Of a stretch of 64,000 nt of DNA, positions 19,337-59,271 are shown piece by piece (within the stretch, counting starts at the first letter, position 1; every line of letters starts with the position of its first letter). Under the pieces are notes generated by a model. It did not search any database, was not told the origin of the DNA, and saw only the letters and a program-made list of their open reading frames with translations. The position numbers were made by a program, and so were the translations under genes. The DNA lies in assembly GCA_951406725.2 (NCBI GenBank), contig OX597821.1:50654001-50718000 (forward strand), in the 5' to 3' direction. The DNA comes from Octopus vulgaris (lineage: Eukaryota).

Positions 19337-19339
<3 letters not shown>

Positions 19340-19630
19340 GAGGCGCAATGGCCCAGTGGTTAGGGCAGCGGACTCGCGTTTTCGATTCCCAGACCGGGCG
19401 TTGTGAGTGTTTATTGAGCGAAAACACCTAAAGCTCCACGAGGCTCTGACAGGGTGTGGTGGCGATCCCTGCTGTACTCTTTCACCACAACTTTCTCTCA
19501 CTCTTTCTTCTGTTGGTCTGCTTGCTTAACCAGCGGGGTGGCGTCATTTGAAGGCTAAAACAATGCGAAGCGCATTGAGACCAGTGATGTTTAGCAACAT
19601 CTGATAGCCTGCTCGGTCACGTGATTACGT
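19337..19630 (+). mobile_element. tRNA(Arg)-like SINE (family C). Copies at 21748-22030(+), 53540-53820(-), 53925-54235(-)
   Basis: GGAGGCGCAATGGCCCAGTGGTTAGGGCAGCGGACTCGCG...TTCGATTCC (A/B boxes) and a shared 3' body. Confidence 0.8.
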
Positions 19631-19686: not shown

Positions 19687-19784
19687 GTTAATCCAAACAA
19701 GAAAACCCAAAAAAACACAACAACGCGAGGACGTGGAACAAATATAATATTATTGGACGCTCAGGAAAGAAGGAAAGAAGGAGG

Positions 19785-19819
19785 GTTAAACGTTTCGAGC
19801 GGAGCTCTTCGTCGGAAAC
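19785..19819 (-). ncRNA. Degenerate minimal hammerhead-like motif in a ~200-bp insert (19687-19890) within (TA)n
   Basis: Minus strand GTTT-CCGACGA-A-GAGC-TCC-GCTC-GAAACGTT-TAAC; U4>C core change. Confidence 0.5.
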
Positions 19820-20104
19820 ATAGGAGGAGGAAAGATCCAGAGAAGGGAAGACAGAGGAAAAAAATCGCCAACGGTACACACGCGGTCACATACACATATA
19901 CATATATATTTATATTTACATATATAATTGAATATAGTTATATATATTTATATACATATATATATGCGTGTGTATATGTATGTGTATGTATGTACATGGA
20001 TATATATATATATATATATAAATACATATACATACACACATATATATGTATGTCTATCTTTCTTACTCATGCTCCATATATATATATGTATTTATATATA
20101 TATG

Positions 20105-20179: not shown

Positions 20180-20754
20180 ATAATAGTTATCGCCATACTA
20201 ATATGGCATTCTTATAAAAATAAGAATAAAGCTGTCCGCTTATTAGCTCCATGAGGCCATCGCCTTAAGTTAGCTATTTGATACACAAACTGTATCCATA
20301 TAACCTTCGAACAAGGGAGGTCAGTCGCTCGACACTACTTGACCGGCTGCCGTTGTTCTCTTTTAGAGAGACTTAGTAATTTTAATATTTCTATTATTGA
20401 AAACAAGTGGATGTATTCCACCGAAGCTAGGTAAATAAAACCTTCGAACAGAGATTGTCAGAAGCGACACCTACTGGTCTGGCTACGCTGCATTGAAAAG
20501 GGGCAATACCCCGAAACGCGTCTGTAGCTGCCGGTCAAGTAGTGTGGAGCGACTGACCTCCCTTGTTCGAAGGTTATATGGATACAGTTTGTGTATCAAA
20601 TAGCTAACTTAAGGCGGTGGCCTCATGGAGCTAATAAGCGGACAGCTTTATTCTTATTTTTATAAGAATGCCATATTAGTATGGCGATAACTATTATTTT
20701 CCGGGAACGCTGCCGTTGTTCTCTTTTAGAGAGACTTAGTAATTTTAATATCTC

Positions 20755-20760
<6 letters not shown>
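20180..20760 (+). mobile_element. Hammerhead-bearing element: inverted arm + 363-nt unit + partial tandem repeat, within (TA)n
   Basis: Inverted arms 20180-20347 / 20530-20697; direct repeat 20346-20398 = 20709-20760. Confidence 0.88.
20487..20528 (+). ncRNA. Type I hammerhead ribozyme (U3-A8 variant)
   Basis: GCTGCA-TTGAAAA-GGGG-CAATA-CCCC-GAAA-CGCG-TC^-TGTAGC. Stem I 6 bp, stem II 4 bp, palindromic ACGCGT stem III. Confidence 0.82.
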
Positions 20761-20810
<50 letters not shown>

Positions 20811-20858
20811 AAACAAGTCAAAATAGAAAATGCTAAAATAATTTTATAAAGAACATTT

Positions 20859-20896
20859 CAGTACCGGTTTCGGTCATTTTGAGACCTTTTCAACTG
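20859..20896 (-). ncRNA. Type I minimal hammerhead ribozyme (U3-A8 variant)
   Basis: Minus strand CAG-TTGAAAA-GGTC-TCAAAAT-GACC-GAAA-CCGG-TA^-CTG; palindromic ACCGGT. Confidence 0.8.
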
Positions 20897-21392
20897 TAAC
20901 GATTAAATAATTAAATTTGGAAAAATTAAAAAGAAAAGTTTTTTTAAAGGAATATTTGTATAGTGTTCAAATATAAGTAGCATTCTGCCTTTCTCTGTCT
21001 CCCTTGTTTGCACTTGTGTGTTCGAGGTCGTTGTGAATTCTTGGTAGGGTAGAAGAAGAAGGTTGATGAGGAGAGGGGGTGGAAAAATTTGGGAGTGCCT
21101 TGATGGTCGTATTTTGAATGGTCAGTGACGGCTAGCAGTTGCAGATCAATTCAGGAGAATATTTCTATTGAAAGGTTTGTTTATGGAATTTGCGTAGGTG
21201 TTTTCCACCCCCTCTCCTCATCAACCTTCTTCTTCTTCTACCCTACCAAGAATTCACAACGACCTCGAACACACAAGTGCAAACAACGGAGACAGAGAAA
21301 GGCAGAATGCCACTTATATTTGAACACTATACAAATATTCCTTTAAAAAAACTTTTCTTTTAATTTTTCCAAATTTAATTATTTAATCGTTA

Positions 21393-21430
21393 CAGTTGAA
21401 AAAGTCTCAAAATGACCGAAACCGGTACTG
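21393..21430 (+). ncRNA. Second copy of the same hammerhead, with a G10.1>A mismatch
   Basis: CAG-TTGAAAA-AGTC-TCAAAAT-GACC-GAAA-CCGG-TA-CTG. Confidence 0.65.
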
Positions 21431-21512
21431 AAATGTTCTTTATAAAATTATTTTAGCATTTTCTATTTTGACTTGTTTTTTCATATATATCAACTCGTGT
21501 GTTCCTTTTCAC

Positions 21513-21601
<89 letters not shown>

Positions 21602-21740: not shown

Positions 21741-22039
21741 CATATATGTGGAGGCGCAATGGCCCAGTGGTTAGGGCAGTGGACTCGCGGTCGTAGGCTC
21801 GCAGTTTCGATTCCCAGACTGGGCGTTGTGAGTGTTCATTGAGCGAAAACACCTAAAAGCTCCACGAGGCTCCGGCAGGGTGTGGCGATCCCTGCTGTAC
21901 TCTTTCACCACTCTTTCTCCCACTCTTTCTTCTGTCGGCCTGCTGGCGTCATTCGAAGGCTAAAACAATGCGAAAGCATTGTGACCAGCGATGTGTAACA
22001 ACATCTGACGGTCTGGTCGGTCACGTGACGTGATATGTG

Positions 22040-58590: not shown

Positions 58591-59271
58591 AGCAAAAAAA
58601 TGACTCGATATGCGAGGCAGAGTGAAAAGATCTATTATCGTGATTACTGTTGAAATAAATCGTTTTTGTTTCTGAGAGATTTTCGATAAATTCACAGAGA
58701 GAAATAGTAGTCTTGCAAGAGCCATTATCTTAATAGTTATATACATACACATTTACATATATGTTTCAGTATGTACGTACTTGCCTGCCTGTTTACTTGC
58801 CTGCCTGCCTGCCTACCTACCTACCTACCTACCTACCTACCTACCTACCTGCCTACCTACCTGTCTGTTTGTCTGTCTGTACAAAACTACGGTTTACGGC
58901 AGACACGTAAAAGATGTTCTAACTCTATATGTATTAAATATATTATATATATATTTAATAATTATATTCAATACACACATAGACACACACGTACATACTA
59001 CTCATACAAACACACACACACACGTTTATATTTATATACATACACATATCTGTCTTTATCTATCTACCTATCTGTCTGTCTGTCTGTGTTTGTGCCCCCG
59101 TAACTTAGCGATTCGGCATAAGAGACCAAAAGAATAAGTACTAGGCTTACAAAGAATGAGTCTTTGGGTCAATTTGTTCGACTAAAGGCGGTGCTCCAGC
59201 ATGGCCGCAGTCAAATGACTGAAACAAATAAAAAGAAAAGAAGAAAAGAATATATGTATGTGTGTGTGTGC

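What the first reader, a model, noticed from the sequence alone, without database searches (positions are those of the whole stretch)
20487..20896. Two unrelated hammerheads with the compensatory U3-A8 core (UUGAAAA)
Seen: hammerheads at 20487(+) and 20859(-) belong to different elements, yet both replace CUGANGA with UUGAAAA while stems I-II and GAAA/NUH are intact. Known: C3-G8 is a tertiary Watson-Crick pair and U3-A8 is a compensatory variant. Inference: the double change reflects selection for catalysis rather than decay, and CUGANGA-based searches would miss these motifs.
Basis: partly seen in the sequence, partly recalled or inferred. Interest (0 to 1): 0.75.

Follow-up and report, generated by a model that had tools for sequence, protein, structure and literature searches.

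The report
Known hammerhead variant in Penelope repeats
Both motifs are real hammerhead-shaped RNA folds, predicted to cut themselves, carried by two young jumping-gene families; their swapped core pair is an already published variant and is the commonest form among similar motifs in this genome, so finding it twice side by side is ordinary.

Summary
Observation confirmed. Two minimal type I hammerheads with a U3-A8 core lie at 20487-20528(+) and 20896-20859(-); a decayed third lies at 21393-21430(+). The first is in a 363-nt non-coding tandem unit (non-LTR retrozyme, 801 motif copies). The second is at the 3' end of an autonomous Penelope-like element (RT + GIY-YIG, 1865 motif copies). The two share nothing outside the ribozyme. 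U3-A8 is the consensus of both families, so it is not decay of these copies. It is not rare here either: 7712 of 8949 genome matches of this architecture (86%) are U3-A8, against 475 C3-G8. Natural U3-A8 is published (Perreault 2011; in Penelope elements, Cervera 2014). The state is probably inherited rather than gained twice: in the retrozyme tree the canonical C3-G8 subfamilies nest inside U3-A8 lineages, with an amplified C3.A8 mismatch subfamily between them. U3.G8 lineages also spread, and G3-C8 (5347 matches) and A3-U8 families exist. Cleavage is untested. This scan already noted like families, the four pair states and G3-C8 on other DNA of this genome. Verdict: new member of a known kind, low interest.

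The parts
20487..20528 (+). HHR1: minimal type I hammerhead, U3-A8 core, 6-bp stem I, palindromic stem III ACGCGU, predicted cut after C17 (20522)
20347..20709 (+). One full 363-nt unit of retrozyme family E1; non-coding (longest ATG ORF in the doubled unit 38 aa), 42% GC, strongly self-paired, HHR1 at the tip of a long rod
   Evidence: D7; z -6.3
20710..20760 (+). First 51 nt of a second E1 unit; this end runs 63 nt beyond the alternative 3' end (Penelope-type tail at one end only), then (TA)n
20180..20347 (-). Inverted, 5'-truncated arm of E1 (unit positions about 184-351), ending in (TA)n; holds no hammerhead
20757..20806 (.). (TA)n microsatellite between the 3' ends of the two elements (shared target)
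20859..20896 (-). HHR2: minimal type I hammerhead, U3-A8 core, 3-bp stem I, palindromic stem III ACCGGU, predicted cut after A17 (20862)
20807..21200 (-). Last 394 nt (3' UTR / pseudo-LTR) of autonomous Penelope-like family E2, 5'-truncated; longer copies elsewhere carry an RT + CX4CX2C + GIY-YIG ORF ending about 710 nt upstream of the hammerhead
21201..21519 (+). Inverted arm of E2 with a tail of about 35 nt that the other arm lacks, then (TA)n
21393..21430 (+). Third hammerhead, a copy of HHR2 with U3-A8 but G10.1 changed to A (decayed stem II)

Best explanation
The two motifs are the hammerheads of two young Penelope-type families, a 363-nt non-coding retrozyme and a protein-coding Penelope-like element, and each likely inherited U3-A8 as the standard core of this genome's Penelope radiation and is predicted to cut its RNA only as a dimer. 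Shown: the motifs, family consensus, copy numbers, element anatomy, (TA)n targets, inverted arms and one-sided tails. Inferred from known biochemistry: U3-A8 keeps the 3-8 Watson-Crick pair. Two hammerheads pair through their 6-nt palindromes, so the core of one cuts the NUH site of the other. For the retrozyme this would release a 363-nt monomer that is closed into a circle. A Penelope RT/endonuclease acting in trans would nick (TA)n, start reverse transcription inside the RNA at two sites 63 nt apart and run round the template, giving head-to-tail arrays with random 5' ends. For the Penelope element the cut would process the long transcript near its 3' end. Selection acts on the source lineages; the window's copies (one hammerhead per strand and element) are probably passive inserts.
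For: Consensus state. Genome census with positions 3 and 8 left open: 8949 matches (reversed control 313); C3-G8 475 (99), U3.G8 587 (75), C3.A8 175 (52), U3-A8 7712 (87) by difference. Penelope identity: GIY-YIG in 5 of 6 E2 ORFs tested, RVT_1 + GIY-YIG in a 634-aa E2 ORF, 5'-truncation gradient. Of 12 endonuclease clusters, 5 carry U3-A8, 1 carries A3-U8, none C3-G8 and 6 gave no hammerhead. Retrozyme tree without the core columns: U3-A8 occurs in all three deep clades, and C3-G8 is nested with support 99/100, 96/93, 98/98, 97/92. Dimer: the monomer fold with stem III is -6.2 and +0.9 kcal/mol, the trans half-site -19.7 and -13.4. Copies within one insertion mostly share one haplotype, across both arms. 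Literature: PMC3088659 and PMC4209133 (natural U3-A8; dimers), PMC7229834 (retrozymes), PMC8557442 and PMC11167929 (inverted arms, tail, (TA)n).
Against: No cleavage, circle or transcript is shown. 5' breakpoints are not enriched at the cut site (6 of 77 within unit positions 172-186, 3.6 expected). Mismatched C3.A8 and U3.G8 lineages were amplified, and an A6G core variant is shared by both arms of one insertion, so an intact core in cis is not strictly needed. No autonomous partner with homology to E1 was found among 13 UTRs from 9 endonuclease clusters (best z 3.2). Published Penelope hammerheads cleave weakly even as dimers (PMC4209133), and only 1 of 9 Xenopus retrozyme dimers cleaved (bioRxiv 2026.07.22.740005). 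The trees are rooted at the midpoint only. HHR2's stem I is weak: the lowest-energy co-fold leaves it open.
Confidence: 0.75

Rival explanations
1. Independent compensatory change: each family started from CUGANGA and separately gained U3 and A8 under selection for catalysis.
For: The elements share no sequence outside the ribozyme. The pair changes at least 8 times on the 19-row retrozyme tree. Both steps are GC-to-AT transitions in an AT-rich genome, and G8 often sits in a CpG.
Against: U3-A8 is found in all three retrozyme clades and in 5 of 6 Penelope clusters with a hammerhead. C3-G8 is nested inside it, and trees that hold the non-C3-G8 members of its clade together are rejected (AU p 1e-5 and 0.003, groups named after seeing the tree).
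Confidence: 0.12
2. Weak or lost catalysis: the motif is kept mainly as a dimerisation or protein-binding structure, and positions 3 and 8 drift towards U and A by mutation bias, with little selection on their pairing.
For: Amplified U3.G8 and C3.A8 lineages. No breakpoint footprint at the cut site. Low published activity of this class (PMC4209133; bioRxiv 2026.07.22.740005).
Against: About 93% of control-corrected matches are paired (U3-A8 + C3-G8). Families with G3-C8 (94 of the first 100 of 5347) and A3-U8 need two transversions that AT bias does not predict. C3-G8 appears regained against the bias. The NUH site and A15.1-U16.1 are kept.
Confidence: 0.12
3. Chance look-alikes in AT-rich repeat DNA.
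For: The isolated motifs fold no better than shuffles (z about -1.1 to -1.2), and neither reaches an Rfam cut-off.
Against: 0 of 100 shuffled windows give such a motif; 8949 genome matches against 313 for the reversed pattern; the position in Penelope 3' ends is the published one.
Confidence: 0.01

Closest known systems
Hammerheads of metazoan Penelope-like elements, including the U3-A8 variant of Schistosoma mansoni Cercyon elements (Cervera and de la Pena 2014, PMC4209133; read: parts 1-2 of 4, abstract to methods)
   Same: Type I fold in the pseudo-LTR, short palindromic helix III, predicted dimer, G10.1-C11.1, copies 100-700 bp apart on opposite strands, U3-A8 covariation (about 1300 hits in S. 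mansoni, found with a changed descriptor).
   Different: There U3-A8 is a minority (about 1300 against about 2000 minimal motifs); here it is 86% of its architecture class. These motifs have a 6-nt palindrome, a 4-bp stem II and no extra base between 9 and 10.1.
Metazoan non-LTR retrozymes (Cervera and de la Pena 2020, PMC7229834; read: passages and section 14. Li et al. 2026, bioRxiv 10.64898/2026.07.22.740005; read: parts 1 and 3 of 5)
   Same: Non-coding tandem units of 350-390 bp with one type I hammerhead each, GC under 45%, strongly self-paired, living beside Penelope elements and proposed to be moved by them.
   Different: U3-A8 core (the term was not found in the main text of PMC7229834). 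Clear Penelope insertion scars (inverted arm, 63-nt one-sided tail, (TA)n target). Circles and cleavage are not shown here.
Natural U3-A8 hammerheads (Perreault et al. 2011, PMC3088659; read: passages)
   Same: C3 and G8 covary to U3 and A8 in several natural examples, stated to be active in vitro.
   Different: A rare variant there; here thousands of copies in many mobile families.
Neptune/Nematis-type EN+ Penelope-like elements (Craig et al. 2021, PMC8557442, passages; Frangieh et al. 2024, PMC11167929, part 1 of 4)
   Same: RT with C-terminal GIY-YIG, CX2-5CxxC linker, 3' hammerhead, 5' truncation, inverted copy, tail of 30-40 bp at one end, microsatellite bias.
   Different: Clade placement rests on the linker motif only; no reference tree was built.

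Membership tests
Type I hammerhead ribozyme (dimer type) | Core U4 G5 A6 A9, G12 A13 A14, A15.1-U16.1 and an NUH site | tested here: met
Type I hammerhead ribozyme (dimer type) | Watson-Crick pair 3-8 | tested here: met
   U3-A8 in both; consensus of both families
Type I hammerhead ribozyme (dimer type) | Stems I and II, G10.1-C11.1 | tested here: met
   6+4 bp and 3+4 bp; stem I of HHR2 is weak
Type I hammerhead ribozyme (dimer type) | Unstable palindromic stem III completed in a dimer | tested here: met
   computed energies only
Type I hammerhead ribozyme (dimer type) | Rfam hammerhead model above its gathering score | tested here: not met
   no match for HHR1; 20.9 of 52 bits for HHR2; the HH9 consensus has C3-G8 and a full stem III
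Type I hammerhead ribozyme (dimer type) | Self-cleavage after H17 | not testable with these tools
   needs a bench assay
Non-LTR retrozyme (element 1) | Tandem units of 150-450 nt, one type I hammerhead each | tested here: met
   363-nt unit, arrays of several units
Non-LTR retrozyme (element 1) | Non-coding, low GC, strongly self-paired | tested here: met
   longest ORF 38 aa, GC 0.42, z -6.3
Non-LTR retrozyme (element 1) | Dispersed multi-copy insertions | tested here: met
   801 motif matches; near-identical copies on many chromosomes
Non-LTR retrozyme (element 1) | Expressed as a monomeric circular RNA | tested here: inconclusive
   only contigs of runs guessed to be RNA were available
EN+ Penelope-like element (element 2) | Single ORF with RT and C-terminal GIY-YIG | tested here: met
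   in other copies; the window copy is a 3' fragment
EN+ Penelope-like element (element 2) | 5' truncation, inverted copy, tail at one end, hammerhead in the terminal repeat | tested here: met
Neptune/Nematis clades | CX2-5CxxC linker before GIY-YIG | tested here: met
   CX4CX2C in P0001; criterion from PMC8557442
Neptune/Nematis clades | Placement in an RT tree with reference elements | not tested
   no reference sequences fetched

The most novel reading that the evidence does not exclude
This genome holds a natural walk of the hammerhead 3-8 pair through sequence space. U3-A8 is the ancestral core of a large Penelope/retrozyme radiation, the textbook C3-G8 was regained from it through a C3.A8 mismatch subfamily that itself spread, U3.G8 lineages spread too, and G3-C8 and A3-U8 families complete all four Watson-Crick pairs. 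Mismatch intermediates survive because in a double hammerhead a partner RNA supplies the core, so weak ribozymes are rescued in trans.
Probability: 0.35. Interest if true: 0.55.

Novelty: new member of a known kind. Interest (0 to 1): 0.27.

Why it matters
The finding as given adds an example to a variant known since 2011 and known in Penelope elements since 2014. Its practical use is for annotation: in this genome a CUGANGA descriptor finds only about 5% of hammerheads of this architecture (475 of 8949), so ribozyme and retrozyme censuses built on it undercount badly. The wider family picture, with all four base pairs and amplified mismatch intermediates on one tree, offers a ready natural series to test how a compensatory pair crosses a fitness valley in a ribozyme, and whether Penelope hammerheads need to cut in cis at all.

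Tried and rejected
Rfam: the 150 listed of 338 whole-window matches held no hammerhead and were mostly miRNA models on microsatellites. Expression: no RNA holder listed. In four runs only guessed to be RNA, contigs span HHR1 with 0, 0, 0 and 1 differences; this is presence, not transcription or cleavage, and is not used as evidence. No reads were laid on element 2, so its expression is open. Core against non-core variation among 49 E1 loci (4 variant votes at 13 core positions; 340 of 17508 overall) was rejected as a test of selection because the loci were picked by likeness to the query or by an intact core. Breakpoint enrichment at the cut site: none. Haplotype sharing within arrays fits a circular template but also uniform multimeric transcripts, so it is not decisive; only 9 private shared variants were found, with no A-to-G excess. 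A parent Penelope element for E1 was not found. The pattern was mis-specified and found only 1 A3-U8 copy, so the size of that family is unknown. Papers not held and not read: Przybilski and Hammann 2007, Nelson and Uhlenbeck 2008, Lunse et al. 2017, Hammann et al. 2012; rates of U3-A8, G3-C8 and mismatch cores are therefore not cited, and these papers, or supplements of PMC4209133 and PMC3088659 that I did not open, may already report natural G3-C8 or A3-U8. Searches for G3-C8, A3-U8 and U3-G8 terms returned only PMC3884650, an engineered variant; searches for the spelled-out core returned nothing relevant by title and abstract start; octopus/cephalopod terms returned no hammerhead census among the listed papers. 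The organism was not determined; earlier AI notes call it octopus-like.

Full report
Observation. Both motifs are in the sequence as described. A scan of the whole window with positions 3, 7 and 8 left open returned four hits. Two are the motifs at 20487-20528(+) and 20896-20859(-); the other two are overlapping weak hits near 58614 with an unpaired 3-8 position. In 100 shuffled windows, hits with a Watson-Crick 3-8 pair and a 4-bp stem II occurred 0.04 times per window, and never with a palindromic stem III. Both are minimal type I hammerheads whose stem III is a 6-nt palindrome. A third copy, of HHR2, lies at 21393-21430(+) with G10.1 changed to A. Rfam gives no match for HHR1 and a sub-threshold HH9 match for HHR2.

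Element 1. HHR1 lies in a 363-nt unit (20347-20709), followed by 51 nt of a second unit and preceded by an inverted, 5'-truncated arm; both 3' ends run into (TA)n. The unit is non-coding (longest ATG ORF 38 aa), 42% GC and folds far better than shuffles (z -6.3), with the hammerhead at the tip of a long rod. The genome (2.8 Gb) holds near-identical copies on many chromosomes, often as head-to-tail arrays with an inverted arm. Seven of 11 loci examined showed one arm ending at unit position 351 and the other 63 nt further on. That is the one-sided tail described for Penelope-like elements (PMC8557442, passages) and explained by internal initiation of reverse transcription (PMC11167929, part 1). 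Size, tandem layout and fold match metazoan non-LTR retrozymes (PMC7229834, passages and section 14).

Element 2. HHR2 lies in the last 394 nt of a longer element. Other copies show a gradient of 5' truncation and an ORF on the same strand, with GIY-YIG in 5 of 6 ORFs tested, RVT_1 plus GIY-YIG in a 634-aa ORF and a CX4CX2C linker. It is an autonomous Penelope-like element of the Neptune/Nematis type by that motif. The window copy is a 3' fragment with an inverted arm that alone carries a tail of about 35 nt. Elements 1 and 2 share no sequence outside the ribozyme. They meet at a (TA)n run that both target, which explains why they are neighbours.

Is U3-A8 the consensus? Yes. For element 1, 801 matches have exact flanks, none has a base other than U at position 3, and the first 100 listed are all UUGAAAA; one copy with C3 and a second change in stem II fell outside that pattern. 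For element 2 there are 1865 matches, and 99 of the first 100 are U3-A8 and one U3.G8.

Is it surprising? No. A generic pattern (Y3, R8, G10.1-C11.1, 6-nt stem III) gives 8949 matches against 313 for the reversed control: C3-G8 475 (control 99), U3.G8 587 (75), C3.A8 175 (52) and, by difference, U3-A8 7712 (87), or 86%. Two of two is then expected about 74% of the time. This share holds for this architecture only. Motifs with an extra base between 9 and 10.1 are excluded, among them a C3-G8 family that I did not count and a G3-C8 family with 5347 matches. Natural U3-A8 was reported by Perreault et al. 2011 (PMC3088659, passages), and in Penelope pseudo-LTRs of Schistosoma by Cervera and de la Pena 2014, who found about 1300 hits with a changed descriptor (PMC4209133).

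Inherited or independent? Endonuclease hits in the fetched loci (76 places, some overlapping) formed 12 clusters. With positions 3 and 8 free, five clusters carry U3-A8 (one only under a looser look), one carries A3-U8, none C3-G8, and six gave no hammerhead; one U3-A8 cluster also has a U3.G8 subfamily. These clusters are 44-62% identical to the query endonuclease or closer, and their stems differ in sequence yet pair. Element 1 belongs to a superfamily of 350-365-nt retrozymes in three clades linked by homology outside the ribozyme. In a tree of 19 hand-picked representatives built without the core columns, U3-A8 occurs in all three clades. The two C3-G8 subfamilies are nested behind two U3-A8 rows and a C3.A8 row (support 99/100, 96/93, 98/98, 97/92). 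Alternatives were rejected (AU p 1e-5 and 0.003), though the groups were named after seeing the first tree and the root is only a midpoint. The simplest reading is that U3-A8 is old and inherited and that C3-G8 was regained. No shared ancestor of elements 1 and 2 could be shown directly.

Selection. Keeping a 3-8 pair across diverged families, with four different Watson-Crick solutions in one genome, supports selection on the hammerhead fold. The constraint is not strict. All 9 hammerheads in 4 loci of one 360-nt subfamily are C3.A8, including a trimer and both arms of inversions, and 15 of the first 100 C3.A8 matches, at 10 loci, belong to it. U3.G8 families are also multi-copy. An A6G core variant is shared by both arms of one element 1 insertion.

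Mechanism (inferred). The monomer fold with stem III closed is unfavourable (-6.2 and +0.9 kcal/mol, against -11.8 and -4.3 with it open), while the trans half-site with a 6-bp stem III gives -19.7 and -13.4. This fits the dimer model of PMC4209133 and PMC6765202 (passages). In such a dimer one RNA supplies the core and the other the cut site, which could let mismatch cores be rescued. For element 1, cutting of a tandem transcript would free a 363-nt monomer, and circularisation with rolling reverse transcription by a Penelope enzyme would give the arrays seen. Copies within an insertion mostly share a haplotype, and 5' ends are spread evenly with no peak at the cut site (6 of 77, 3.6 expected). 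Both fit a circular or a uniform multimeric template. The window's copies have one hammerhead per strand and element and are probably passive. Activity cannot be assumed: published minimal Penelope hammerheads cut weakly, and 1 of 9 Xenopus retrozyme dimers cut in vitro.

Earlier notes of this scan, read after these analyses, describe a 364-base U3-A8 family, a 358-base family with four pair states and the G3-C8 family on other DNA of this genome, and U3-A8 families in other genomes. They agree with this reading and are not counted as support.

Verdict. The feature is real and the variant is known: new members of known kinds, a non-LTR retrozyme and a Penelope-like element. Interest 0.27. The family-wide walk of the 3-8 pair is the only part that could deserve more.

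Noticed in passing
L210-L239; also L005, L013, L043 (G000, genome-wide): A short, apparently non-coding repeat family with a type I hammerhead whose core pair is swapped to G3-C8 (extra base at 9/10.1, 7-bp stem I, palindromic stem III): 5347 matches, control 0, 94 of the first 100 G3-C8 by hand count. No copy in this window.
   Followed up: partly
L089:2050(+), L264 (G000:C12:46019124): Hammerhead with an A3-U8 pair and a 2-bp stem II, about 280 nt behind the GIY-YIG ORF of a Penelope family related to element 2; two loci seen, family size unknown.
   Followed up: partly
L259, L275, L276, L201 (C3.A8); L129, L277, L278 (C3-G8); L130, L136 (U3-A8): Sister retrozyme subfamilies of 359-360 nt in which C3-G8 is nested inside U3-A8, with an amplified C3.A8 mismatch subfamily between them.
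   Followed up: yes
L121, L124, L146, L186, L187, L190, L063 (retrozymes); L181, L192, L195 (Penelope subfamily): Multi-copy lineages with a U3.G8 wobble core, both non-coding and protein-coding.
   Followed up: partly
window 19761-19840 (-): Decayed copy (U4 changed to C) of an abundant C3-G8 minimal-hammerhead repeat with an extra base at 9/10.1 and stem III ACGU; intact copies in L005, L025 and L065.
   Followed up: partly
window 19337-19624 and 21749-22028 (+): Two copies of a SINE-like repeat with a tRNA-like head (likeness judged by eye), each next to (TA)n (families D6, D8-D11, D13).
   Followed up: no
L029 and L016: Core variant A6G shared by both arms of one element 1 insertion and by 2 of 3 units of another, so a likely impaired core was copied; RNA editing is one untested explanation.
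   Followed up: no
L148:2245-4587 (+): Intact 781-aa Penelope ORF (RVT_1 + GIY-YIG) of a third family; many places with a 781-aa open frame are listed, and the family's hammerhead is also U3-A8.
   Followed up: partly
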